Virus record (IMG/VR): IMGVR_UViG_2778261534_000002
Length of the DNA: 52,137 nucleotides
Source: a virus
Lineage: Duplodnaviria; Heunggongvirae; Uroviricota; Caudoviricetes
Strand: one strand, 5' to 3'
This document shows, in pieces, positions 5,944-49,554 of the stretch. Position numbers and translations under genes: made by a program. The notes under the pieces are model-generated. The model was given only the letters and a program-made list of their open reading frames with translations. It searched no databases and had not been told where the DNA came from. Position 1 is the first letter of the stretch. Each line of letters begins with the position of its first letter.

Positions 5944-7626
5944 ATGGCAACGAAAGACAAAAACAAAGGCTTTCTGTCAGCATTGAAGAAAGCCTTCAAC
6001 GGTGGTGATGTTACGCCCGCCGATCCGGTCGTTTTTACGAGCGGGCATAGTGTCGTTGCTCGTTCCGGCCTGTCTGCTTTACGCCCAGGTATACTGGGGA
6101 GCAACAGCGATGGCATGACGAGTGCAGCAGATTCAATTTCTTTATCCTCTGAACTGCCCGGCGAGCGCCTGCAAAAGTACAACATCCTGGAAACGATGGC
6201 TAAAAGCCCGACTATCTCGACGGCTTTAAATATTCACATTGCACATGCGCTTGCGCCTTCAAAAAAAACCGGACAAGCATTCATCCTTTCGCCAAAGGAT
6301 GGTTCCGATGCTGAGGCAGTAAGTAGATGTGAAGAGTTAACTGCTGATTTGGGGGCGATGATTAATGACGGACTTCCTTCATGGGCCATGATTATGGCGA
6401 TCTTTGGGGTGTCTTATGTCCGCCCTTATGCTGAACAGGGCAGGGGGATAACAGGCATTGAGTCCAGTTATTACACTCTGCCACACTTCGTCCAGGAGTT
6501 TTATCGTGGTAGCCAGCTGGTAGGTTTCAGTGGTGATTACATCCTGGATACGCATAGTTTGCGCAGAGTAATAACCGAACCGTGGAATCTGGTTTCCATG
6601 AAAAATCCCTATTGGACGCCGCAGCATAAAGTTATTCCGGTCAGCTACGGCACAAAAGGGTACTCACTGTTAAGTGAGCAGGCTGATAAGCCGTTAATGG
6701 AGACGCAGAATTACGGAACTTCATTCCTTGAATACAGCTATGAACCTTACCTGAATTTATGTGCTGCGCTCGCCGCGCTGAAATCAACGCGAAATAATGC
6801 AGCCAAAATTGACCGCCTGATTGCTCTTACGACGAACACACTGGACCCGGTTAATGCGGCGAACTATACGCGTGGCGTCAGCCAGGCATTGAAGCGACAT
6901 AGTGACCTGGTGGCGCAAAGGTCGATTAATGCCAACGCTATTCCGACGGTGCTTAACCACCTGATACCTGTTATGGGAGACGGGAAGAACGGTATCACTA
7001 TTGATACGCAATCCATACCCGCAGATATCAGTGGTATCGAAGACGTTATGTTTCACCTCCGGCAGCTTGCTGCAAGCCTAGGCATTGACGCAACAATGCT
7101 TGGCTGGGCTGATCAGATGAGTGGTGGACTTGGGGAAGGCGGTTGGCAGCAAACAGCTATCCAGGCCGCATTACGTGCGAACTGGATCAGACAGGCCGCG
7201 CAGCGAACTATTTATCGGCTTCATGATATTCACCTCGCTTATAAATACGGGAAGGTTTACACCGAAAAAAACCGTCCTTATGACGTGCAATTCAACTCAA
7301 TGAACACTGCTATCCAGGAAGAGGAAAACCGGGAACTGGATGCACGCGCCAACTTTGTTGCTGTCATCTCCCAAATTATGGACCAGATCCAGAACAACCC
7401 GAAACTGGCTGGTAGTGACGCGTTTATGCGTTATCTGTTCACCGAGCAGTTGCACATCGACGATGACACTCTCAACACCATGATCAAAGAGTTTAAGGCG
7501 AATGAATCAGAGCAAAACAACGAGCATGGTATGTACGAATCCGCGCCGTTGTCGTCCGGTGACGATCCGGAAAACTGGACGCCAGAACAGTTAATAAACT
7601 TTGCAAAATTTGTGATGAGCAATTAA
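5944..7626 (+). CDS. portal-like head protein (Prt-like)
   Basis: 560 aa; size and position immediately upstream of a head-processing-like gene; call by synteny, not motif. Confidence 0.4.
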   Translation: MATKDKNKGFLSALKKAFNGGDVTPADPVVFTSGHSVVARSGLSALRPGILGSNSDGMTSAADSISLSSELPGERLQKYNILETMAKSPTISTALNIHIAHALAPSKKTGQAFILSPKDGSDAEAVSRCEELTADLGAMINDGLPSWAMIMAIFGVSYVRPYAEQGRGITGIESSYYTLPHFVQEFYRGSQLVGFSGDYILDTHSLRRVITEPWNLVSMKNPYWTPQHKVIPVSYGTKGYSLLSEQADKPLMETQNYGTSFLEYSYEPYLNLCAALAALKSTRNNAAKIDRLIALTTNTLDPVNAANYTRGVSQALKRHSDLVAQRSINANAIPTVLNHLIPVMGDGKNGITIDTQSIPADISGIEDVMFHLRQLAASLGIDATMLGWADQMSGGLGEGGWQQTAIQAALRANWIRQAAQRTIYRLHDIHLAYKYGKVYTEKNRPYDVQFNSMNTAIQEEENRELDARANFVAVISQIMDQIQNNPKLAGSDAFMRYLFTEQLHIDDDTLNTMIKEFKANESEQNNEHGMYESAPLSSGDDPENWTPEQLINFAKFVMSN

Positions 7627-10214: not shown

Positions 10215-10439
10215 ATGGTTAATGCCAATCCTTGCTCACGCCCAGAATTCATCTGGCGTTTCCACTCCCTGCAAAAACACTGCGATCACTTCGCAATTGC
10301 CGCAACCGAAAAAGAAGCCCGTTCTCTGATCCCTGATCAGTATGGTGTTCTTACTGGTCGTTTCTCTACTTCCCCACAACCAAACACTAATCCCTGGTAT
10401 CGCAATATTACCAATCCCGGAATTGCGGAGGCACACTGA
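10215..10439 (+). CDS. Icd-like small protein of immunity module 1
   Basis: 74 aa; paralog of 49339..49554 (shared EFIWRF and AATE-EARS motifs); stop overlaps ant start (TGATG). Confidence 0.5.
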   Translation: MVNANPCSRPEFIWRFHSLQKHCDHFAIAATEKEARSLIPDQYGVLTGRFSTSPQPNTNPWYRNITNPGIAEAH

Positions 10440-12012: not shown

Positions 12013-15000
12013 TTGGACAAACTACTTCATTCAATCAGTGAAGCCTCCAGCTTAGGCGAACTGATTGAAATTGTTAGTCGGTTGCATAAATTACGTGCTG
12101 TTGCGACCTTTGGCGTCAGGAAAGCCGATGGCGTCAGTATTCAGAAAACACGCCGGGCAGCAAACAATGCCGCAGTAAATCTTCTTAATTCCCTTCCGCC
12201 CGGCTTCGATGGGGCGAAATTAACTGACGAACAACGTCAGATTCTTGCTGGGTATACCGGTGAAGGCGGCCTGACAGATGGTGAGGGCAGCCAATACGAA
12301 TACTACACGCCACAGTTTATGGCTGAAGGTATATGGGATCTGTTTGCTGACTACGGTATTGATGGCGGGCACGTACTGGAACCATCAGCGGGCACAGGTA
12401 TTTTCCAGGAGACAAAACGGCAGGGCATGATAATGACCAGCGCGGAACTGTCTCCGATTTCTGGTCGAATAAACCAGCTTTTGCACCCGGAAGACGATGT
12501 GAATATCGGGGCGTTTGAGGCGCTGGCGGCGAAAGATGCAATGTATGACCACGCTGTTGGTAACGTACCGTTTGGTGAAGGGCGTTCCGGCGTTGCCGGG
12601 CTTGATCCGGCATATGCAAACGAGAAGAACGTTGGCAATTACTTTGTGCTGCGCACGATCGACAAGGTTAAGCCTGGTGGGCTTATCGTATTGGTGGTGC
12701 CAAATGGCATGACCGATGGTACGAAATATAAAAAATTGCGCGATAAAGTCAGCCGTAAAGCGGAATTTTTGGGCGCACATCGTATGCCTTCCGGTACGTT
12801 CAGCGAATCCGGTACAGATACCGTGGTGGACGTATGGGTATTGCGTAAACACCCGGAAACCTTCCTGGAGATGATCCCCGACACGGATGATTCAACACTC
12901 AAATCGGCAAACGTCCTTTGGGATACCTTCCTCAAAGGAAAATGGTTTACAACCGAAGGGAAGCGATTTGTTTACGGCGACATGGAACGTACCAGCTTCC
13001 GCAATACCTTGGTGGTGAAAAAAGACGGTCGTGTATCCAATGAGTCGATGAAAACCGCGCTATCTCGTCGCTTTGATAGTCGCATCAATTGGGATTTGCT
13101 CGGCGTAACTACTCAGGCATGGCAGGGCGCGAAAGTGGGCGATAAACGCCTTGTAGGCGGTATCTGGCATGAGTTTGATGGTCTGAAATGGGTTAAGGAC
13201 ACGACAACTAAATCCTCCGCGCTTGATGTAAGTCGATATGGTGTTTCGACGTTTGGCGATCTGCAGATCGCGTTCCAGTCAACAAACGGGATTCTGTCTT
13301 TGTCATGGGACCAGATATCGGCGATCGCGTCCGACTATCCATCGGTTGTCAGTGATGACGTGGCAGCAATGATTCGCTTTGCTGGCAAGCAGCGAGAAAA
13401 AGACAGGGAGCGCGTTATGCGCGGTGCGCTGATAGGTCAGTTGATCAACAAGGCACTTGATTTGCGTAACCTGGGTGTGAACGTTGATGACAAACTGGCA
13501 GATGCATCCCGCCTGGCGGCAGCAGAAGTTGCGAAGTATGGACCACCGCACGCCATTAAGCTGAATGGGCTTGCTGAAGCTGGCGCTAAAAACTGGATGA
13601 CGTTCACTGGCAATGTGAAACAGGATGGTTCCACTTCTGACCTTCTGGCAGGGCGACTTGATGTAACGGATGGTGCTGCCGGTATTGACTTTACACGTCC
13701 TGAACAAGTGATAGCACATCTTTTCAGTGATGTAGCCCTTAATCCTATAACGCTGGGAGACTTTCGTGAGGCGTTTGCTGGTGAACTGCCAGAGGACGAC
13801 GACGCGGCCCTTGAATACCTGGCGAAATTTGATGATATCGCTATTGATGGGTATGGCTGCCTGCTGCCGATGGACCGCGCCACCAGCGGCGATATTGCAA
13901 CCAAAACAGCATTGCTGATGGGCTGGCGTGATGCGTCAACAGGTGAGCAGAAAGCGAACTTTGAGCGTCAGTTGGCGAAAATCGAAGAGAAACGTATTTT
14001 CACGCCACTAAATAAAGTCACCGTTAATCTGAATGCCCGCTGGCTGGATCGCCGCTTGATAAAAGAGTTCCTGGCAGAGCAGGGCTATGACGAGTTTAAG
14101 TACACTGAACCTGATCTGAAGGTCGTCGATGGCATTCTGGTATCTCCGGACGATTACGAAGGTAAGGACGGGGTATTTACCGGCTATCAGCTACGAACCG
14201 TAAACGGCAAAAACGGGAATGAGTTCAAGAAGGCCAACAATAAAGACGGCTTCCTGAACCAGTTAGAAAACTACCTGAACGGTGTTAAACCGCGTGGGCA
14301 GAACGCTAACGAGTACCTGGATAAAATTGCTCAACTGGAAGTTAGTTTTAACGACTGGTTACGCACTCACCCGCAGGCTGATCAGATAGCCCGCGAGTAT
14401 AACGACGCATTCAATGGTTTCATTCCGTTCACGCATTCTGACGCACCGCTTGGCCTGGAAGGGCTTAGTGGAAAGCGCATTCCTCTTACTTATCAGAATG
14501 AAGAAGTTCGGCGCTTGTCAGAAGATGGGCGCGGCATCATGGGATTTGGTACCGGGCTGGGTAAAACCACGACCGCGCTTGCGCTTGAGGCGTATAACTT
14601 CGAAACAGGTCGCACTAAACGCACGTGTATTGTTGTTCCGAAGGCGGTTTATCAGAACTGGTATCACGAGGCACAGAGTTTCTACAGTGCTGATGCCTTT
14701 GCCAATATGATGTTTATCGGTTTGGATGAAGTTCGTGATGACAGCGGAAATATTCTGACCGCGCCGGTGCTTGATGAAAATGGCGAACCACGCCTCGACA
14801 GTAACGGGCAGCCTCTTACCAGAAATGTTGTGAAAGAGTCCGCCAGCGCCGTTATCGTTCAGCGCATGAACATGATCCCGTCGTCAAATTGGCGAACGGT
14901 CATCATGACAAAAGAACAATTCGCGTCTATCCCGCTACGAGAAAAAACCATCGAGGAGAACTCACAGCAAGCTGTCTTTAATGCTGTGGAAATGGGGCGT

Positions 15001-18000
15001 CTTGACCTGGCGTCCGGTAAACACCGTGATGCGCAGAAGAAGAACAAGATTAAGGATCAGGCCGCGAATACCGGTACAACGAAGAAGCAGAATATCCCGT
15101 ACTTTGAGGATATGAACTTCGATAGCGTGATTGCCGACGAGGGGCATAACTACCGCAACTCCTTTAATGCCGGGCGTGAAGCGGGACAACTGGCATATTT
15201 GCCTAACCCGGCAGTATCCAAGATGGCCCGCGACATGGCTGTAAAAGCTGCGTACATGATGAAACGCAACAACGGGCGTGGTGTAGTCATGCTGACGGCA
15301 ACTCCGCTGGTGAACAGTCCGATTGATGCCTTCAACATGCTGTCTACTGTCATTCCGCAGGAAGAGTGGATGCGCATGGGCATCATTACGCCTGATGATT
15401 TCGTTCGTGTGTTTGGCAAAACAGCCACAGTTCAGGTCCAGAAAATTTCCGGGGAAGTGGAAGAGAAGCAGGGGCTGGTGGGCTTCCAGAACCTTGACGG
15501 CCTGCGTGGTATTTTCCATCGTTGGACCACTCTGAAGACTGCTGCAGATGTCGGAGCAACGGTTAAAATTCCCGACATCATTGAGAACACCTTGCAGATC
15601 CCGATGACAGGGGAGCAGGAGACTGCTTATGAAGAGCTTCGTAAGCGTGCTCAGGAGTTAAGTCGCAATGATGAGCTGACAGTCGATGAAAACGGGCATA
15701 TCACTAACGACAAACCGGATGATTTCATCTTCTCCATCATCCGTGACATGGACAAGGTTGCTATAGACCCGGATCTGTATGCCAGTGCGATTACATTCCA
15801 GTTCCCCGTTGAGCTTGCAGACCAGGTAAAAGCTATTGCTGATGCCTTGCCAAAAGTAGCTGGCGGTAAAGTGGCAGATGATGTTGATGAGGCCGAGGAA
15901 GACGGCGCTGGCGGGCTGGTCAGTACGCGTACCAGCAAGGTAGTGAAGACCGCTTTTAGTGAACATCCGACGCATGTTGAAATACGTGCCAGCATTGAAC
16001 TGGAAGCTGAAATACTTAAGGCCATTGCGGCTGCCGGTATTGATATGCAGCAGGTATCGCACCCCATCCCGCCGAAGTATGCCGCGCTGATCGAAAATCT
16101 TCGTGAAGGTCTGAAGAACGGTAAGCAGATCGTCTTTATTGATGAAAAAGCCCAGCACCAGAAGCTGCGCCGTATTATCGCCAGTGCACTGCAAATGCCG
16201 GAGCAGGAGATTGGCATTATCAATGCGACGACAGTTAGCCAGGCTGGCGGCATCAAGCTGAAGAAGGTGAATAAGCCGACCGAACCTACTCCAAACAAAA
16301 ACGGTGAATACAAAGAAGGGGCATGGGAAACCTACTACAGCAAACTTGCCCAATATGAGGATTATCTCTCAGCCAAAAATGATGCTGGCCTTGAGGGCAT
16401 GGAAGGTATTGCCGCCGACTATAACGAAGGTCGCACGCGCATCATAATCTGTAACAAGAAGGCTGAAGTAGGTATTAACCTGCACATCGGGACAACCGAT
16501 ATCCACCACCTGACACTACCCTGGACACCAGCCAGTATCGACCAACGAAATGGGCGCGGTGCGCGCGTAGGTTCACCGCAAGAGAAGGTCAATGTTCACT
16601 ACTATTGTGGCAAAGGCACATTCGACGACTTCCGTCTGGATACGCTGAAACGTAAGAAAGACTGGATCAAGATGGTGATGACCTCCGACATGTCAGAGAT
16701 CGCCAATGGTGATGCGGATGATGCTGATGAACGCGCCATTATGCTGGCGGCAAACCCGGAAGAACGCCGCGCAATCATGGCTCGCCAGGCGCAAGAGCGT
16801 GAAGAACGTCTGAAACTGAAAGCACAGCGCGAGGCCAACAATGCTCTCGATATCTACCTGAAAGCGGCAAACGCCGCCGGAAAAGATATCGGCATGATGG
16901 AGACAGAACTGAAAAGCGCGATGGAACAGATAGAGTATTACCAGCGCAATCTTGACGACCTGATAAAAGCGGGTACGAACAGGAATGGGCAAAAATACGC
17001 GCTTGAGCAGTTGAGTAGCTACAGAAAACGTGCGCGGGTGCTGAAGTTTGCGATCACCAGGGCAAAAGACGCGGATACCATAATGAAACGCTCTCGTGGT
17101 GATGTGGAGCGCGCTATTAAGTCTGGTGTGCTGGATATCAGTATCGATGTTATTCAGAACCCACAGGAATATATGCGCACTGACAAGAATATCCTGTTGC
17201 ATAAAGGTAGTTATTACCGTGCAGTCATTGATGATCGCGAAACAACAGCGATTGTCCGGGTGGAAAAAATTGACGGTGAAAAAGCACAATACATCTGCCG
17301 TATCGCCTGGCTGGATAGAGCAAGTCGTTACGCTCGATCACCGGGGTCAATCGTTACATTGCCGTTTGACTCTGTGATTGAAGCGGTAACTTTTGAAGAG
17401 GGGGTAGCTGAATCGCGCGCAACGGCTGCGCGTGGTGTTCAGTGCCACCAGCTATCAACGTCACTTACTCGCGATCAGTTCTATGATGCTATTCGTAACG
17501 GAGTAATGAAGGTCACTACAGGCCAGCCTGGTAGAGCATGGGGCGGTGAACCAGGTATTAAATACTGGGCCTATCGCACCGATGATGGTCAGATCGCGCT
17601 GTCATCGACCTATGATGGCATGATAGGACAGAAAATCGGGCGTACATCGGATATTGCACCAGAGCAGTGGATTTACCCTGATATCAACAATGAGGCGCTG
17701 AAGCGTGAAGTGGCAAAAATACAAGCCAGTGATAATCCGCTGAATATCGTGGACGGAGAGGGATTCCTCCAGGCATTGTATGGGTATGATTACATCCAGG
17801 GAATGCAGGCATGGGGCGCACAAGCAACGATGGATGATGTTGCCCAGGAGTTCGAAAACTGGATGGCTGGGCGTGGTCTGTCAGGTCGCTCGCTTAATAA
17901 AGTCACTTCTGAAGATATTCTTAGCTTGTTCCGCAAACCGTCCGGAGAAGGTCTGGAATCATTCTGGAGGACCGTGCTGGCATACCGTTTATTCCAGGGC

Positions 18001-18849
18001 AGGATGAAAGCCTTTAGCAATATCGATGATATTGAACGGATGTTTAATCAGGTCAAGATAGCGAAAATTAAGACGAAGATCGAAAAAACACGTTCTGCGC
18101 TGGTGGCCTGGCGCGATGCATTGTTTGAGCAATATAAATCACTCAGTGATGCAGATGGATGGGCGGCATTGGAACAGCTGGCGAATAATGGGGTAGATGG
18201 AGCGAAACTCGCCATTGTTCAGGCTGATAACCCCCTGGAATCACCGGCAGCACAGTGGATTAAGGTGGGGGCTGTCATCAATGCATTTGATGAAAAATAC
18301 ATTAGTAAGGACGATTTTGCTGATGCTGTTTCTGTTAATCGCCTGGTAGAAATGGCTACCCGCCGCGCCCGTGAGTTGAAAGACGGCGACTATGTGAATG
18401 AGTTGCCGGATACGCTCAAATCGGCAACGTGGCAGGACTATGTATCGCTGAAAAACGGCGGGGCCACTGAATCAGAGATCGCGGAAAGGCTTGAGCAGGC
18501 TGAAAGCAAAAGAGAAGAGCAGGCGGCAGTGGCTGAAGCCAGAGCTGATGAAGCGGCGAATGATGACTATATCATTGTGGTTAATGATAAGCCGATTCGC
18601 GCTAAGGCGCGTGTTCGCGGGCGCTGGTGGAGCGTCAGCGAGGACGTTGGCGCGGTTTATCTCATTGCCGACCAACCAGGTTCCTCGACAATACGGAACG
18701 CCAAAGACGCGATTAAGAAGATTGGCGGGCGTTTCTGGAATTTTGAAGCAAACCCGGTTGCTGATGTGAACTTTGACCGTCCTGCATGGATGGTATCTAC
18801 GCGTTACTCGGTAGATGAACTGCGTAAAATAATCGCCGATGCGGCCTAA
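12013..18849 (+). CDS. darB: DarB-like giant antirestriction protein (N6-adenine methyltransferase + helicase)
   Basis: 2278 aa from TTG 12013 (SD GGGGG); methyltransferase motif I EPSAGTGIF and motif IV NVPFGE; helicase Walker A GFGTGLGKTT and DEGHNY box. Confidence 0.85.
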   Translation: MDKLLHSISEASSLGELIEIVSRLHKLRAVATFGVRKADGVSIQKTRRAANNAAVNLLNSLPPGFDGAKLTDEQRQILAGYTGEGGLTDGEGSQYEYYTPQFMAEGIWDLFADYGIDGGHVLEPSAGTGIFQETKRQGMIMTSAELSPISGRINQLLHPEDDVNIGAFEALAAKDAMYDHAVGNVPFGEGRSGVAGLDPAYANEKNVGNYFVLRTIDKVKPGGLIVLVVPNGMTDGTKYKKLRDKVSRKAEFLGAHRMPSGTFSESGTDTVVDVWVLRKHPETFLEMIPDTDDSTLKSANVLWDTFLKGKWFTTEGKRFVYGDMERTSFRNTLVVKKDGRVSNESMKTALSRRFDSRINWDLLGVTTQAWQGAKVGDKRLVGGIWHEFDGLKWVKDTTTKSSALDVSRYGVSTFGDLQIAFQSTNGILSLSWDQISAIASDYPSVVSDDVAAMIRFAGKQREKDRERVMRGALIGQLINKALDLRNLGVNVDDKLADASRLAAAEVAKYGPPHAIKLNGLAEAGAKNWMTFTGNVKQDGSTSDLLAGRLDVTDGAAGIDFTRPEQVIAHLFSDVALNPITLGDFREAFAGELPEDDDAALEYLAKFDDIAIDGYGCLLPMDRATSGDIATKTALLMGWRDASTGEQKANFERQLAKIEEKRIFTPLNKVTVNLNARWLDRRLIKEFLAEQGYDEFKYTEPDLKVVDGILVSPDDYEGKDGVFTGYQLRTVNGKNGNEFKKANNKDGFLNQLENYLNGVKPRGQNANEYLDKIAQLEVSFNDWLRTHPQADQIAREYNDAFNGFIPFTHSDAPLGLEGLSGKRIPLTYQNEEVRRLSEDGRGIMGFGTGLGKTTTALALEAYNFETGRTKRTCIVVPKAVYQNWYHEAQSFYSADAFANMMFIGLDEVRDDSGNILTAPVLDENGEPRLDSNGQPLTRNVVKESASAVIVQRMNMIPSSNWRTVIMTKEQFASIPLREKTIEENSQQAVFNAVEMGRLDLASGKHRDAQKKNKIKDQAANTGTTKKQNIPYFEDMNFDSVIADEGHNYRNSFNAGREAGQLAYLPNPAVSKMARDMAVKAAYMMKRNNGRGVVMLTATPLVNSPIDAFNMLSTVIPQEEWMRMGIITPDDFVRVFGKTATVQVQKISGEVEEKQGLVGFQNLDGLRGIFHRWTTLKTAADVGATVKIPDIIENTLQIPMTGEQETAYEELRKRAQELSRNDELTVDENGHITNDKPDDFIFSIIRDMDKVAIDPDLYASAITFQFPVELADQVKAIADALPKVAGGKVADDVDEAEEDGAGGLVSTRTSKVVKTAFSEHPTHVEIRASIELEAEILKAIAAAGIDMQQVSHPIPPKYAALIENLREGLKNGKQIVFIDEKAQHQKLRRIIASALQMPEQEIGIINATTVSQAGGIKLKKVNKPTEPTPNKNGEYKEGAWETYYSKLAQYEDYLSAKNDAGLEGMEGIAADYNEGRTRIIICNKKAEVGINLHIGTTDIHHLTLPWTPASIDQRNGRGARVGSPQEKVNVHYYCGKGTFDDFRLDTLKRKKDWIKMVMTSDMSEIANGDADDADERAIMLAANPEERRAIMARQAQEREERLKLKAQREANNALDIYLKAANAAGKDIGMMETELKSAMEQIEYYQRNLDDLIKAGTNRNGQKYALEQLSSYRKRARVLKFAITRAKDADTIMKRSRGDVERAIKSGVLDISIDVIQNPQEYMRTDKNILLHKGSYYRAVIDDRETTAIVRVEKIDGEKAQYICRIAWLDRASRYARSPGSIVTLPFDSVIEAVTFEEGVAESRATAARGVQCHQLSTSLTRDQFYDAIRNGVMKVTTGQPGRAWGGEPGIKYWAYRTDDGQIALSSTYDGMIGQKIGRTSDIAPEQWIYPDINNEALKREVAKIQASDNPLNIVDGEGFLQALYGYDYIQGMQAWGAQATMDDVAQEFENWMAGRGLSGRSLNKVTSEDILSLFRKPSGEGLESFWRTVLAYRLFQGRMKAFSNIDDIERMFNQVKIAKIKTKIEKTRSALVAWRDALFEQYKSLSDADGWAALEQLANNGVDGAKLAIVQADNPLESPAAQWIKVGAVINAFDEKYISKDDFADAVSVNRLVEMATRRARELKDGDYVNELPDTLKSATWQDYVSLKNGGATESEIAERLEQAESKREEQAAVAEARADEAANDDYIIVVNDKPIRAKARVRGRWWSVSEDVGAVYLIADQPGSSTIRNAKDAIKKIGGRFWNFEANPVADVNFDRPAWMVSTRYSVDELRKIIADAA

Positions 18850-35728: not shown

Positions 35729-35944
35729 AATACTGGAAGCACTTTGTCTGCTACCAAGCATTCTCTGTTTAAGCACAACCATTTCCTGACGGCATAACAC
35801 AGCAATAGCGGTCCTGGCACCAATTTGCTTACCAACCAGGTATTGCTTTACCTCGCGGCGACTCACGCCATCAAGAAGCATCTTTAACGCTTCACGGGAC
35901 AACTTGTTGTATTTACGTGCCATTAATCTACTCCGCAGAACCAT
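35726..35944 (-). CDS. hypothetical small protein downstream of doc
   Basis: 72-aa ORF overlapping doc 3' end; basic, HTH-like. Confidence 0.3.
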
Positions 35945-36308
35945 ACAATCTACGTAACGTGTCGGCGACAGAAGATACAGATATCTCGCCAGTCGCAGCG
36001 CCTACAGTAAGGTCTGCCAGTTCAGGTGAATCAAATACCTGCACCCCGTTACGGCGTAGAAATAGCAGCGCACTGTTTAGCGCGGTACGCTTATTGGCAT
36101 CATTGAATATATGCCCTCTCGCTGTAGCCACCAGGTAGGTGGCGGAGACTTCGAAAAGGTCGCTGATCTCTTCGTAGGCAACTCTGGCCTGAACTCTCCC
36201 GATAATGGCCTCTGCCCTACCCGGATCTGACATTCCCGGCAGGCCACCGTAGCGGCTTATATTCGCATCATGAAGCGCAATAAGTTCTTCCGGTGATATA
36301 TGCCTCAT
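35928..36308 (-). CDS. doc: Doc toxin (Fic-fold kinase) of phd-doc addiction module
   Basis: 126 aa; matches P1 Doc as recalled, including HIFNDANKR Fic-like motif; overlaps phd stop. Confidence 0.9.
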
Positions 36309-36529
36309 TATCGGTTAACCAGTTCCTTGTTGGTGGAGTCCAGGGTGTCAAACAGGGATGCAAATTCGGCATCCAGCGCCGCTTTTTTGTAGGCTTCAAA
36401 AGTAGCCTTGCTAACAATTACTGCTGGCTCACGGCCTCTGCGGGTGATTTCAACCTCTTCCCCGGCTTCAACATTGTTGAGCACTTCAGAAAGGTTGCCG
36501 CGCGCGGTACGGAAGTTAATGGATTGCAT
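36308..36529 (-). CDS. phd: Phd antitoxin
   Basis: 73 aa from [13 protein letters not shown] (track ORF starts 2 codons earlier); matches P1 Phd as recalled; GTGTACAC-type palindromes upstream. Confidence 0.9.
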
Positions 36530-37194: not shown

Positions 37195-37584
37195 TCATAT
37201 AGCAGGACTATCATCAAATTCACCGCCCCTGGCGTCATTGATAATGTGGGTGATCACACCAAAAACAGCATTACTGCCCGTGTATCCATCGTCATCTACT
37301 GGTAACGCCTCTTTCTTCCCGGTGCTTAAATCCTCCAGGTGCTGGCGCGGATACTTCCTGTATCTCTTTATGCGATATTCACCCTCCATAGCGCACACAA
37401 GCAGCGAACCATCAACTGGAGTAAGCGAAGAATCAACCACCAGCAAAGCACCCTGCAATATTCCCTCACGGTGATGGCTATCAGCTGCCCGCATGAAGTA
37501 GGTTGCTGATGGATGCCTGATTAGTTGTTGATCAAGAGAAATTCGGCTTTCAACATAATCCGCCGCAGGAGAAGGGAAGCCCAT
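37195..37584 (-). CDS. humD: HumD (UmuD-like S24 peptidase)
   Basis: 129 aa; LexA/UmuD-type fold with Ser-Lys dyad context; LexA box 19 nt upstream. Confidence 0.8.
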   Translation of the reverse strand: MGFPSPAADYVESRISLDQQLIRHPSATYFMRAADSHHREGILQGALLVVDSSLTPVDGSLLVCAMEGEYRIKRYRKYPRQHLEDLSTGKKEALPVDDDGYTGSNAVFGVITHIINDARGGEFDDSPAI

Positions 37585-44200: not shown

Positions 44201-44505
44201 TTTGTTTTCTCCTGTCTGAACATCACTATCATCAGGTCGCCTTTTGTCGCTATCCTCGCTGTTGTGCCTGGTTCAATGCTGCCAAGTTCAAATGCGTCAT
44301 AGAACGCTTCTAATGCCTTCTGGCGTAGTTCCTGTTTGCGCCGTTTTTTCCACTGTTTCAGGAAAATGGAACCCAGCCATCGCCATGTACGGGACATGAT
44401 GTAAAGCCAACCGAGAAGTGCCAGACCGGTATTTAGGGCCGTATCGAGCGTTATCGTGGTGTCGATATTCACTGGCTGCTTCCTTTGCGAATCTGTTCCG
44501 CCCAT
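44197..44505 (-). CDS. hypothetical membrane protein
   Basis: 102 aa; hydrophobic helix LALLGWLYIMS followed by basic stretch. Confidence 0.4.
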   Translation of the reverse strand: MGGTDSQRKQPVNIDTTITLDTALNTGLALLGWLYIMSRTWRWLGSIFLKQWKKRRKQELRQKALEAFYDAFELGSIEPGTTARIATKGDLMIVMFRQEKTK

Positions 44506-45254
44506 TCTTCAAGGGATTTCTCCGCATATTCACCGGACAGGCCATCAAGCGGATGCGGTTCATTAGCCAACTCTTCTTTCGCTGACAAAATCATGCGTGT
44601 AACGTCGAAAACTTCACGCAAAGACTTATTGATAAATCCGTGATTGAACGCAGCAGCAAGACGGCTTGCGGTGTAGTTAATCCCCTCGTTGCGTGCCTCC
44701 GCACGTACTTCAGCCAGGAAAGCGTCGGTGGCCGGAGTTTCAGGAATCCGTCTCCTCATCAGTTCTATTGCATGATTGAACCCGAAATCTTCCGCGAGAG
44801 ATACGTCATCCATATTGTCATTGTCATCCTCAATATCCCGTGATTCTGGAATTGCAGACTTTATTCCCGCATTCTCCGCCGCCAGCGCCGCGCAATTACC
44901 CTCCAGCTCTGCAATGCGCTGTTTTGCGGCATCAAGTTCAATCGATAATTTTTCCAACTGCTCTTTATGCTTCTTGTATTCCTGATATGCGTGCCAGGAC
45001 TGACCTTTGCGCACACTATCAGTAATATCAGTAATCTGTTCTGGTGTTAGCGTGGTCAGTGGCTGTGCTGGAAAAATCATCACTTGCCCGGCATCCCAAT
45101 CAAAACCCACCTGAATTGACTGAACCTCAACTGATGGTGTTGAACCGATGCGACCAGGCGAATGAACAACGATCGTTACATCCATATCGCGACGATGGCT
45201 GTGGTTGTTGGACAAAATACGATTCACCAACTCAGAAAATTTGGAAAATTTCAT
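44469..45254 (-). CDS. coiled-coil paralog A (Ea22-like family)
   Basis: 261 aa from ATG 45254 (ATGA overlap with upstream gene); shares coiled coil ([15 protein letters not shown]) and C-terminal block ([19 protein letters not shown] ... EQIRKG) with 45574..46242 and 46239..46748. Confidence 0.5.
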
Positions 45255-45577
45255 GCTGATTCCCTTTGCTCTTCCTGGATAATGTTGTTGCAATCTTTCA
45301 CGCACTCGTTGCAGATGAAAACGTTGTCCCCGGCAATTAACTTTTTAACGGTGTGCTGGGATTTGTTACAGAAGCTGCAATAAAGCGTTGGACTGGCTGA
45401 TACGGATGGTGCGCCAGATGTCAGCCGCGCGATGTCGTTCTTGCGACGCAATATCACACGGCTGCACTCGACCAGCATCTCCGGGGATATCTTCTCCTCC
45501 GTAGCGAGCGTTTCTAATCGTTCGAGTATGTGGAAGGCTTTTTCCTGGGTAATTGCAGAATGCGATGTGGTCATCAT
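45251..45577 (-). CDS. protein with ClpX-type zinc-finger domain
   Basis: 108 aa; C-terminal [35 protein letters not shown] closely matches the ClpX N-terminal C4 zinc-binding domain pattern. Confidence 0.6.
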
Positions 45578-46242
45578 CTTTTCCCTTCAAAGTTCGGGCG
45601 CAGGCAGGATTGTCCTTTACGAAGCAGGGCTGCGAACCTGTCAGCCGCATCCGCGCAAGCAGAAGCAACGGAATCAAAAAATGGATCATCTCCGGTATCG
45701 CGCATCGTCAAAGCGAATGCCTCCAATCCCTGAGCCTGTATTTCAACAAGGTAAGCTTCAGATGTAGTGCTTTTCACCTCGCCTAATTTGTTATGAGCTA
45801 TGTTCGCTACACATGCGATGTCTATATCTGGATGATTAATTGGGAGATGGCTAAGAATTTCCTCAAGTGCTGCTTTTTTGTTTTGGCATTCCGCCACCAG
45901 CGCCCCGCAATTGCTTTCCAGCTCTGCAATACACTTTTTAGCGGCTTCCAGCTCAACACGCAGATTCTCAAGCGTTAGAGCCATCTCCACGTTCTCGTCC
46001 AGCAGTTCAATCACATCAGGATCGCTATCATCAACTACTGTTATGCGCGATTTTTTGTAATGCTCGTCAGCATAAGTTCGTCCAGTTTTGAAGCATCCGT
46101 CTTCCTCCATGCCAGAACAGGCATAAACAACATGTGATCCAGATATGCGCTGCATTGACATTTCCTCGCCACAAACAGAGCATTTAGGCGCTGGTTTCGG
46201 TGAAAAACGTTCACGTAACGTCTGATAATAAAGCTCGCTCAC
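45574..46242 (-). CDS. coiled-coil paralog B (Ea22-like family)
   Basis: 222 aa; N-terminal Cys cluster, coiled coil [29 protein letters not shown]. Confidence 0.5.
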
Positions 46243-46748
46243 TGGATGACTCCTTTACGAAGCTGTTCGGCGATATCTTCGAGAACGCCATCAGAGAATG
46301 AGCGGTCAAAATCGCCTTCCGGCGCATTAGCCATAAACTCAGTAGAGGTAAGAATCATCCGGGCAATATCCGCGGCGTTCTTCGCAGTATCATCAATAAA
46401 ACCAGCTACCCAGGCAGCCAGCATTCTGTTCGCCACAAAGTAAGCGCCCTCCTTGCGTGCTTCAGTCTTCACTTCATCCAGGAAAGTGTCGGTCGCAGGA
46501 GTAGTTTTTTGTGGTGATAGGGCGATACGAATTGTTTCAAGAGCTGGATCTATTTCCACTGTTGGCACCTTGATAAAACCAAGCTGCACGCCATTCATAA
46601 TGAACGTGCGGCGATCCTCACATATCGCCTTCAGTCTCGCATTCTCCGCAGCCAGCGCCGCGCGCTCTTTCTCAAGTCGGGAAATTTCCGTTACATACTC
46701 AGCGTTACGCTCTGCCAGTTGTGCGGGCGTTAAACCTTCAGACTTCAT
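46239..46748 (-). CDS. coiled-coil paralog C (Ea22-like family)
   Basis: 169 aa; coiled coil and C-terminal block TPATDTFLDEVKTEARKEG ... EQLRKG. Confidence 0.5.
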   Translation of the reverse strand: MKSEGLTPAQLAERNAEYVTEISRLEKERAALAAENARLKAICEDRRTFIMNGVQLGFIKVPTVEIDPALETIRIALSPQKTTPATDTFLDEVKTEARKEGAYFVANRMLAAWVAGFIDDTAKNAADIARMILTSTEFMANAPEGDFDRSFSDGVLEDIAEQLRKGVIQ

Positions 46749-47868: not shown

Positions 47869-47883
47869 GTGTTAGAAAATCAA
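47869..47883. promoter_or_regulatory. operator-like 15-bp motif in divergent promoter region
   Basis: GTGTTAGAAAATCAA with partial inverted partner TATCTAACC 10 nt downstream. Confidence 0.4.
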
Positions 47884-47947
47884 TTTTGAATATCTAACCA
47901 TTTTGATCAATCATAGAAAAATCGTTGAAAAGTAAGAGACTGCCATC

Positions 47948-49338: not shown

Positions 49339-49554
49339 ATGGCTACTATCCCCACCCCAACTCATTCTGAATTTATCTGGCGTTTCTATTCCTGCCAAAA
49401 ACACCTCTATATCTGCGTCATGGCTGCAACCGAAGCAGAAGCGCGCTCATACCTTCCCGAAGAACCCTGCATTTTTGCTGCTCGCTTCACTCTTGATGCG
49501 ATGGAGATCCTCAATTACTGGAATCTGCCGATGAACTGCGTGGAGGTGCACTGA
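49339..49554 (+). CDS. Icd-like small protein of immunity module 2
   Basis: 71 aa; paralog of 10215..10439; SD AAGGAGG; stop overlaps ant start. Confidence 0.5.
   Translation: MATIPTPTHSEFIWRFYSCQKHLYICVMAATEAEARSYLPEEPCIFAARFTLDAMEILNYWNLPMNCVEVH

What the first reader, a model, noticed from the sequence alone, without database searches (positions are those of the whole stretch)
45251..45577. Phage protein carrying a ClpX-type zinc-finger domain
The C-terminal about 40 aa closely follow the pattern of the ClpX N-terminal zinc-binding domain, which dimerises and docks adaptors and substrates. A stand-alone copy could titrate adaptors or heterodimerise with host ClpX, altering ClpXP proteolysis, for example of repressors or antitoxins such as Phd.
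Basis: inference. Interest (0 to 1): 0.55.

Follow-up and report, generated by a model that had tools for sequence, protein, structure and literature searches.

The report
Phage protein copying ClpX's zinc domain
A small gene on a P1/D6-like phage-plasmid really does encode a free-standing copy of the zinc-binding docking domain of the host ClpX unfoldase. The domain is joined to a phage-specific helical hairpin, and its function has not been tested; the likeliest job is interfering with how ClpXP picks its substrates.

Summary
Window 45251-45577 (minus strand) is a 108-aa ORF. Residues 64-106 match the ClpX C4 zinc-finger domain: Pfam PF06689 E=1e-17, 28/39 residues identical to E. coli ClpX, and a predicted fold that superposes on the ClpX ZBD crystal structures.

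It is not ClpX and not a "carboxylate-amine ligase", a database misnomer. RefSeq already names it "ClpX C4-type zinc finger protein", and it belongs to PHROG 6797 (function unknown). I found no functional study.

New here:
- The family pairs a conserved two-helix N-domain, found only with this ZBD, with the ZBD through a flexible linker.
- It is under purifying selection, and its synonymous sites are saturated against host clpX, so it is not a recent capture.
- It has two subfamilies. Its diverged members sit at one fixed spot in P2-like prophages: the last gene of the gpA replication operon, before the portal gene. The window's type sits among Ead/Ea22-like genes.
- The adaptor-pocket residues F16 and I46 are kept.

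Isolated ClpX ZBD is known to inhibit adaptor-dependent ClpXP degradation in vitro, so a decoy role is the best guess (about 0.4). A specific link to Phd is unsupported: no P1 or P7 record matched, and the P2-like loci examined showed no phd/doc.

The parts
45251..45577 (-). CDS of the stand-alone ClpX-type zinc-finger protein: 108 aa from the first ATG, or 107 aa from the ATG at 45574, which is the start RefSeq WP_000213525.1 uses
   Evidence: ORF list; RefSeq annotation of the identical plasmid; full-length match to phrog_6797, E=1.2e-56
45419..45577 (-). N-terminal domain (aa 1-53): two predicted helices (about aa 11-27 and 32-53) forming a hairpin. It is specific to this phage family
   Evidence: AF2 secondary structure. 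No Pfam hit even at E<=10. A search with the N-domain alone finds only ZBD-carrying relatives or truncated fragments. dN/dS is 0.18-0.30
45389..45418 (-). Flexible Ser/Ala/Pro-rich linker (aa 54-63, [10 protein letters not shown]). It is also the junction at which alternative N-termini are found fused to the ZBD
   Evidence: pLDDT dips to 60 for residues 51-60. Chimeras P0023 and P0024 join a different N-terminus at ...SGAPSVSAS
45260..45388 (-). ClpX-type C4 zinc-binding domain (aa 64-106). Zinc ligands are C66, C69, C88 and C91. F68 corresponds to ClpX F16, I98 to I46 and D94 to L42
   Evidence: Pfam PF06689 E=1e-17; PDB sequence hits; Foldseek to 2ds6/2ds5/2ds8/1ovx; invariant columns; 28/39 identity to E. 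coli ClpX
45574..46242 (-). Upstream Ead/Ea22-like gene. Its TGA stop (45576-45574) overlaps both candidate ATGs of the ZBD gene, which suggests translational coupling
   Evidence: (PF13935 E=5.6e-12)
44469..45254 (-). Downstream Ead/Ea22-like gene. Its ATG (45254-45252) overlaps the ZBD gene's TGA (45253-45251) as ATGA
   Evidence: (PF13935 E=2.7e-8)

Best explanation
The gene encodes a roughly 12-kDa accessory protein of temperate enterobacterial phages. It consists of a phage-specific two-helix N-domain, a flexible linker and a genuine ClpX-type zinc-binding domain (ZBD).

Proposed mechanism (inferred, not shown): the free ZBD presents the same beta-sheet and hydrophobic pocket surface that ClpX uses to dock adaptors and N-domain-dependent substrates (SspB, RssB, UmuD, trigger factor, lambda-O/MuA-type signals). 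It therefore competes with ClpX for them. The effect would be to damp adaptor- or ZBD-dependent ClpXP degradation selectively, without blocking the ATPase pore. The conserved N-domain would add a second binding partner, still unknown, or control oligomerisation.

The gene is co-transcribed with early or replication genes: the gpA operon in P2-like phages, and a long accessory operon in this D6-like phage-plasmid. The beneficiary is therefore probably a phage early protein or a host regulator whose half-life is set by ClpXP.

Shown: domain identity, fold prediction, selection, architecture and synteny. Inferred: every interaction and the direction of the effect.
For: - Domain identity and fold.
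- Zinc ligands invariant, F16-equivalent invariant, I46-equivalent aliphatic in 16 of 17 close members (Gly in one) and Ile in four members whose N-domains share only 28-46% identity.
- Purifying selection: N-domain dN/dS 0.18-0.30; ZBD 0.28-0.29 between subfamilies and within B.
- Synonymous sites against E. coli clpX are saturated (pS 0.85-0.98) and blastn finds no clpX hit in 5426 genomes. The protein-level resemblance is therefore old and maintained.
- Precedent: isolated ZBD in trans inhibits RssB-dependent sigma-S degradation (PMC7226468). F16 and I46 lie in the hydrophobic pocket region that binds TF, lambda O, SspB and RssB (PMC7804408). Adaptors dock by strand-pairing to the ZBD sheet (bioRxiv 10.1101/2024.07.05.602318).
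- No gene partner is conserved across both subfamilies, which fits a self-contained single-gene function acting on a host target.
- Constant position at the end of the gpA operon in diverged P2-like prophages.
Against: - There is no experimental or in-silico interaction data. Complex modelling was not possible with the tools.
- A pure decoy does not need the strongly conserved N-domain.
- In this protein the residue beside I46 on the helix, L42 in ClpX, is Asp. The strand segment reads AGDNVF instead of AGPSVY. ZBD dN/dS within subfamily A is 0.63. The docking surface may therefore have drifted or been retuned.
- ClpX-like ZBDs occur in about 10,000 50%-identity clusters, including many short 1-5-ZBD proteins. 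Those are almost as similar to E. coli ClpX (median 25/39 against 28/39 for this family), so similarity is not specific evidence of host mimicry.
- F16 and I46 could be conserved for folding or dimerisation rather than ligand binding.
- Expression timing is unknown.
Confidence: 0.4

Rival explanations
1. Mimic-adaptor or poison subunit. The ZBD heterodimerises with a ClpX ZBD, or otherwise docks on ClpX. The N-terminal hairpin holds a specific target, which is thereby delivered to ClpXP for destruction. Alternatively, the hybrid N-domain dimers disable ClpX for N-domain-dependent work such as Mu transpososome remodelling.
For: - The N-domain is conserved and always paired with the ZBD.
- A flexible linker is typical of tethering adaptors.
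- Tethering a degron-less protein to the ZBD is sufficient for ClpXP degradation (CLIPPERs, PMC12373786).
- The ClpX ZBD is a constitutive dimer (dimers of isolated ZBD seen in PMC7226468).
- The ZBD module is found recombined onto other N-termini (P0023, P0024), as expected for a portable docking module.
Against: - ZBD dimers of ClpX are reported as very stable, so subunit exchange with a free protein may be slow (from my own knowledge of Wojtyra/Donaldson 2003, not read here).
- No target is known.
- No conserved neighbouring gene could be the cargo.
- Dimer-interface residues could not be checked, because no structure coordinates were available.
Confidence: 0.2
2. The ZBD is used only as a generic zinc-ribbon dimerisation or protein-binding module in a function unrelated to ClpX, for example a small regulator of phage replication, partition or the lysis-lysogeny decision.
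For: - Thousands of non-ClpX proteins carry near-canonical ZBDs in many architectures, so the fold is a widely reused module.
- The position next to gpA and ParM/ParR-like genes in P2-like phages, and among Ead/Ea22-like genes here, is compatible with a replication or lysogeny accessory role.
- PADLOC finds no defence-system match.
Against: - The residues retained are those of the ClpX adaptor pocket (F16, I46) as well as the zinc ligands.
- No DNA-binding or other functional domain is detectable.
- The only documented activities of this domain family are dimerisation and adaptor or substrate docking on ClpX.
Confidence: 0.25
3. Same decoy biochemistry, but the biological purpose is inter-phage conflict. 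One version is a prophage- or plasmid-encoded exclusion factor that starves superinfecting phages of ClpX N-domain functions (Mu-type replication, completion of repressor inactivation). The other is an anti-defence factor that stabilises labile antitoxins of abortive-infection TA systems.
For: - In P2-like prophages the gene occupies the variable slot between the replication gene and the portal gene. From my own knowledge this is the tin/old position, a recognised hotspot for defence cargo.
- ClpX is required to finish CI inactivation and prophage induction in S. aureus (PMC10584840, abstract listed).
- Phage inhibitors of Lon (T7 Gp4.5, T4 PinA) and lambda RexB acting on ClpP proteases are precedents (own knowledge).
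Against: - There is no PADLOC hit.
- The gene points the same way as gpA and follows it closely, which suggests lytic-cycle expression rather than lysogen expression.
- No phenotype data exist.
Confidence: 0.1
4. A decaying fragment of a captured host clpX gene with no function.
For: The high amino-acid identity to ClpX could suggest capture.
Against: - dN/dS is well below 1 in most comparisons.
- Synonymous sites are saturated against E. coli clpX, and there is no nucleotide-level match.
- The ORF is intact in 195 of 5426 complete E. coli genomes and in 78 IMG/VR loci.
- The architecture is conserved in members with only 28-46% N-domain identity.
- The start and stop codons are translationally coupled to the neighbouring genes.
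Confidence: 0.02

Closest known systems
[quoted passage not shown]
   Same: C-x2-C...C-x2-C zinc site, the same length, 28/39 identical residues, and a predicted treble-clef plus C-terminal helix fold (TM about 0.73, rmsd 2.0 A). Pocket residues F16 and I46 are retained.
   Different: - It is detached from any AAA+ module: the NCBIfam ClpX equivalog scores 47.5 bits against a cut-off of 359.
- The domain is C-terminal instead of N-terminal and is preceded by a phage-specific helical hairpin.
- It carries the substitutions P31D, S32N, Y34F, D41K, L42D and R48Q.
Recombinant isolated ClpX ZBD used as an in-trans competitor in ClpXP assays
   Same: A free ZBD without the ATPase. It inhibits RssB-dependent sigma-S degradation in vitro (PMC7226468). 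This is the activity proposed for the phage protein.
   Different: It is a laboratory construct, not a natural gene. It has no N-terminal extra domain and has the exact ClpX sequence.
phrog_6797 / RefSeq 'ClpX C4-type zinc finger protein' (e.g. D6 gp034, P88 gp19, UTI89_RS04545)
   Same: The window protein is a full-length member (E=1.2e-56).
   Different: Nothing structural. The family has no assigned function and is often mislabelled 'carboxylate--amine ligase'.
Other stand-alone or tandem ZBD proteins (phrog_12435 and phrog_5259; the 65-aa protein of Pseudomonas phage PP9W2; bacterial proteins with 2-5 ZBD repeats)
   Same: A ClpX-type ZBD outside ClpX.
   Different: They lack the N-terminal hairpin of this family. 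Their architectures and hosts differ, and they are equally uncharacterised.
Phage-encoded modulators of host AAA+ proteases (T7 Gp4.5 and T4 PinA against Lon; lambda RexB against ClpP proteases). Cited from my own knowledge, not read here
   Same: The proposed outcome: a phage reshapes host proteolysis to protect labile proteins.
   Different: There is no sequence or fold relationship. Those proteins are not copies of a protease domain. The mechanism proposed here is domain mimicry of the docking site.

Membership tests
ClpX C4-type zinc finger domain (Pfam PF06689) | HMM score above the curated gathering threshold | tested here: met
   64.2 bits against GA 27, E=1e-17, profile positions 2-39 of 39
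ClpX C4-type zinc finger domain (Pfam PF06689) | Four zinc-ligand cysteines arranged C-x2-C-x18-C-x2-C | tested here: met
   C66, C69, C88 and C91 are invariant in 17 family members and align to ClpX C14, C17, C36 and C39
ClpX C4-type zinc finger domain (Pfam PF06689) | Treble-clef-type fold with a C-terminal helix | tested here: met
   The AF2 model has pLDDT 84-86 over the domain. Foldseek top hits are 2ds6, 2ds5, 2ds8 and 1ovx, with TMt 0.68-0.74 and rmsd 1.8-2.4 A. This is a prediction, not an experiment
ClpX C4-type zinc finger domain (Pfam PF06689) | Binds zinc and forms a constitutive dimer | not testable with these tools
   Needs metal analysis and SEC-MALS or NMR.
ClpX C4-type zinc finger domain (Pfam PF06689) | Adaptor and substrate docking pocket (F16, I46) | tested here: inconclusive
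   F68 (F16) and I98 (I46) are present and conserved. The neighbouring L42 is Asp in this protein, and binding itself was not tested
ClpX AAA+ unfoldase (NCBIfam NF003745 / TIGR00382) | Full-length protein with an AAA+ ATPase module that reaches the equivalog cut-off | tested here: not met
   47.5 bits against cut-off 359, and 43.6 against 370.75. Only model positions 5-50 match, and the protein is 108 aa long
phrog_6797 (phage family, unknown function) | End-to-end match to the family profile | tested here: met
   E=1.2e-56, residues 2-107 on profile positions 1-106 of 107
Carboxylate-amine ligase (the name carried by D6 gp034, P88 gp19 and many RefSeq entries) | A ligase catalytic domain | tested here: not met
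   Pfam and NCBIfam detect only the ZBD, and 108 aa is too short for such an enzyme. The name is a propagated misannotation
SspB-type ClpX adaptor | A substrate-binding SspB domain plus a C-terminal ClpX-binding (XB, LRVVK-like) tail | tested here: not met
   No SspB domain is found in Pfam. The C-terminus is the ZBD itself, and the C-terminal tails are not conserved
Known anti-phage defence proteins (PADLOC-DB) | Match to any defence-system model | tested here: not met
   0 families at E<=1

The most novel reading that the evidence does not exclude
This would be a natural 'docking-domain decoy': temperate phages of Enterobacterales carry a maintained copy of the ClpX adaptor-docking domain. 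With it they selectively switch off, or re-route through the N-terminal hairpin, adaptor-dependent ClpXP proteolysis during early development, while leaving the protease itself intact. It would be the first natural inhibitor or re-programmer of a AAA+ protease that works by mimicking its substrate-selection domain. It would also give a functional handle on the thousands of uncharacterised non-ClpX ZBD proteins.
Probability: 0.3. Interest if true: 0.7.

Novelty: new member of a known kind. Interest (0 to 1): 0.45.

Why it matters
ClpXP sets the half-life of many regulators that phages care about. From the papers read here these include sigma-S via RssB, ssrA-tagged proteins via SspB, and lambda O. 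From my own knowledge they also include MuA, UmuD/D', and antitoxins such as Phd.

A phage-borne copy of the exact domain ClpX uses to choose those clients would be a simple and selective way to rewire host proteolysis. The experiments that would test this are cheap. It would also suggest a role for the very large, unstudied population of stand-alone and tandem ClpX-type zinc fingers.

If the domain turns out to be only a generic dimerisation module, the finding reduces to a correct domain annotation that databases already carry.

Tried and rejected
1. **Recent capture from host clpX: rejected.** blastn of the gene against 5426 complete E. coli genomes never hits clpX. Nucleotide identity over the ZBD is 62-68%, with synonymous differences saturated.
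2. **P1 C1-operator control of the operon: uninformative.** Searching for the P1 C1-operator consensus gave one 3-mismatch hit, which is no better than chance. A guessed D6-type variant was also at chance level. Promoter and terminator scans told me nothing either. Expression timing stays unknown.
3. **N-domain homology: nothing found.** No Pfam hit at E<=10 and no structural match beyond the ZBD in PDB or BFVD. A sequence search found it only with the ZBD.
4. **Species-representative genomes: no confirmed loci.** The search for related loci with the N-domain alignment failed once for lack of a conserved stretch and then returned no confirmed loci. IMG/VR worked.
5. **A conserved partner gene: none** shared by both subfamilies.
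6. **Host-specific mimicry judged from identity alone: not supported.** Other non-ClpX ZBDs are nearly as similar to E. coli ClpX.
7. **Literature on phage or stand-alone ClpX ZBD proteins, and an Ea22-ClpX link: nothing relevant**. Park 2007, Thibault 2006 and the Baker & Sauer review are not held. XB-contact and dimer-interface residues beyond F16 and I46 could therefore not be checked.
8. **Heterodimer modelling with ClpX: not possible,** because custom sequences cannot be submitted for structure prediction.

Full report
**1. What is in the sequence**

Window 45251-45577 is a minus-strand ORF of 108 aa: [108 protein letters not shown].

- The TGA stop of the upstream gene (45576-45574) overlaps both candidate ATGs.
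- The ORF's own TGA (45253-45251) overlaps the ATG of the downstream gene as ATGA.
- The ORF is therefore embedded, with translational coupling, in a long minus-strand operon of small accessory genes. Both immediate neighbours are Ead/Ea22-like (PF13935).

The window is 100% identical to about 92-kb non-mobilizable plasmids of Salmonella Thompson and E. coli. It is related to phage D6, a P1-like phage-plasmid. About 8-9 kb further along the same strand lie humD, phd and doc (window 37195-37584, 36308-36529 and 35928-36308).

**2. Check of the observation**

- Residues 66-102 match Pfam PF06689 (zf-C4_ClpX) at E=1e-17, 64.2 bits against a gathering cut-off of 27.
- The best PDB sequence matches are E. 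coli ClpX ZBD entries: 1ovx E=1e-15 and 2ds5 E=4e-15.
- 28 of 39 core residues equal E. coli K-12 ClpX.
- The four zinc cysteines are invariant in the family.
- An AlphaFold2 model (mean pLDDT 78.8) shows helix 10-26, helix 31-52, a low-confidence linker, then a ZBD-like unit with a C-terminal helix.
- Foldseek against the PDB returns only ClpX ZBD structures as significant hits (TM about 0.73 normalised to the target, rmsd about 2 A, 69% identity).

**3. What it is not**

- It is not ClpX. The NCBIfam ClpX equivalogs score 44-48 bits against cut-offs of about 360, and only over the first 50 or so model positions.
- It is not a 'carboxylate--amine ligase', the name carried by D6 gp034, P88 gp19 and many RefSeq entries. 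No such domain is detectable.
- It matches no PADLOC defence model.

**4. What was already known**

- RefSeq calls the identical protein (WP_000213525.1) 'ClpX C4-type zinc finger protein'.
- PHROGs has a full-length family for it, phrog_6797, with unknown function (E=1.2e-56).
- Eight full-text literature searches found no study of phage-encoded or stand-alone ClpX ZBD proteins.

**5. Anatomy and evolution of the family**

Distribution:
- Close homologues form only 25 clusters at 90% identity, and every source name that gives an organism is Escherichia or Salmonella.
- 195 of 5426 complete E. coli genomes carry a match, about half on plasmids and half on chromosomes.
- IMG/VR yielded 78 loci.

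Subfamilies:
- Type A (MTTSHSAIT..., the window's type) occurs in D6/P1-like and other phage-plasmids and in some P2-like prophages.
- Type B (MQHIDREKAQ..., the P88 type) occurs in P2-like prophages.

The N-domain:
- It has no Pfam match even at E<=10.
- It is found only together with the ZBD.
- The ZBD, however, also occurs recombined onto other, Ead-like N-termini (P0023, P0024). Some members carry the first 17 or so residues of the neighbouring Ead-like gene (P0002, P0003, L017). A deletion variant fuses a truncated ZBD to the downstream Ead-like protein (L021, L039).

Selection, by Nei-Gojobori analysis:
- N-domain dN/dS is 0.18-0.30.
- ZBD dN/dS is 0.28-0.29 between subfamilies and within B, but 0.63 within A.
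- Against E. coli clpX, the proportion of synonymous differences is 0.85-0.98 (saturated) and nucleotide identity is 62-68%.
- blastn never hits clpX.
- The resemblance to ClpX is therefore old and kept by selection, not a recent capture.

**6. Synteny**

In P88, UTI89 and O141:H4 prophages the gene lies after the replication endonuclease (gpA) and ParM/ParR-like genes. It sits just before the oppositely oriented portal and terminase genes.

Four much more distant full-length members (P0036, P0089, P0095, P0158) have N-domains only 28-46% identical. All of them occupy the same slot: the last gene of the Phage_GPA operon, before the portal gene or Ogr/Delta. They are in P2-like prophages related to Xuanwuvirus phages of Enterobacterales. 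From my own knowledge this is the tin/old position of P2, a variable cargo hotspot.

No neighbouring gene is conserved across both subfamilies. That argues for a self-contained function aimed at a host component or at a widely shared phage component.

**7. Mechanistic reasoning**

Established facts, from papers read here:
- The ClpX ZBD is the docking platform for SspB and RssB. Deleting it abolishes RssB-dependent sigma-S degradation without affecting ssrA substrates. Adding purified ZBD in trans inhibits sigma-S degradation (PMC7226468).
[quoted passage not shown] That region binds trigger factor and overlaps the lambda O, SspB and RssB sites. The ZBD is required for lambda O degradation (PMC7804408).
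- Adaptors pair a strand with the ZBD beta-sheet (bioRxiv 10.1101/2024.07.05.602318).
- Tethering a protein to the ZBD is enough to get it degraded (PMC12373786).

In the phage protein, F16 (F68) is invariant. I46 (I98) is aliphatic in 16 of the 17 close members (Gly in P0022) and is Ile in all four distant members.

The simplest reading is therefore a competitive decoy for ZBD-docking adaptors and substrates.

Caveats:
- The conserved N-domain is unexplained by a pure decoy. It fits an adaptor-like or poison-subunit model equally well.
- In the window's own protein, L42 is Asp. By helical periodicity (i to i+4) this residue lies on the same helix face as I46; that placement is my inference.
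- The strand segment is AGDNVF rather than AGPSVY.
- ZBD dN/dS within subfamily A is relaxed.
- ClpX-type ZBDs are very common outside ClpX. There are 10,050 clusters at E<=1e-3, including many short proteins with 1-5 ZBDs. Those are almost as similar to E. coli ClpX as this family, with a median of 25/39 against 28/39. High identity by itself does not show host-directed mimicry.

**8.

phd-doc and humD are indeed on this replicon. From my own knowledge, Phd is a ClpXP substrate, and UmuD tethers UmuD' to the ClpX N-domain.

Two points argue against a Phd-specific role:
- No P1 or P7 record is among the 30 phage records that match the protein.
- The family's constant home is P2-like phages, and none of the P2-like loci examined showed phd/doc.

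A constitutively active, stable ClpX decoy would also blunt post-segregational killing by phd-doc. HumD/UmuD, sigma-S, or a phage replication or early protein are equally plausible beneficiaries. None was tested.

**9. Verdict**

- The domain call is right and is already in the databases.
- The functional proposal is reasonable, has in-vitro precedent, and can be tested directly, but it is unproven.
- I rank the explanations as follows:
  - decoy of adaptor docking, 0.4;
  - generic module unrelated to ClpX, 0.25;
  - mimic-adaptor or heterodimer, 0.2;
  - inter-phage conflict role using the same biochemistry, 0.1;
  - junk, 0.02.
- Novelty: a new, catalogued but uncharacterised member of a known domain family, with a distinctive architecture and synteny.
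- Interest: 0.45.

Noticed in passing
L021 and L039 (IMG/VR loci), about 6000-6850: A natural deletion variant. The ZBD is cut after ...FICDEC, so the fourth cysteine context and the C-terminal helix are lost, and it is fused in frame to the downstream Ead/Ea22-like protein (282 aa).
   Followed up: no
Proteins P0023 and P0024; also P0002, P0003, P0008, P0015 and loci L017, L019, L020: Mosaic forms. An Ead-like coiled-coil N-terminus is joined directly to the linker plus ZBD at ...SGAPSVSAS. Alternatively, the first 17 or so residues (MKSEGLTPAQLAERNAE) of the neighbouring gene, window ORF 46239-46748, replace the start of the ZBD protein. The ZBD gene takes part in the module shuffling typical of the Ead/Ea22 region.
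   Followed up: partly
D6 gp034, P88 gp19 and many RefSeq/nr entries: Members of this family are widely mislabelled 'carboxylate--amine ligase', although the ClpX zinc finger is their only detectable domain.
   Followed up: yes
window 47880-47925 (read on the minus strand): The divergent intergenic region between ref (plus strand) and the start of the accessory operon contains the inverted repeat GTTAGA-N19-TCTAAC. It could be an operator of the D6-type immunity repressor. The P1 C1 operator consensus is not present.
   Followed up: partly
window 10215-10439 and 49339-49554: There are two separate Icd-like host cell division inhibitor genes. The first (10215-10439) lies next to a Rha-family regulator gene. 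The second (49339-49554) lies next to an ash-family gene, at the position where D6 has icd followed by an anti-repressor gene.
   Followed up: no
window 12013-18849 (minus strand): A 6.8-kb gene for an SNF2-related protein of about 2278 aa.
   Followed up: no
Search of protein representatives output, e.g. P0026, P0028, P0035, P0052, P0057: There is a large, apparently unstudied population of short bacterial proteins made of 2-5 tandem ClpX-type ZBDs, plus longer proteins that carry ZBDs at either end.
   Followed up: partly
P2-like loci L003, L004 and L085: P88-type P2-like prophages carry a ParM plus 'plasmid partitioning/stability' gene pair directly between gpA and the ZBD gene.
   Followed up: no
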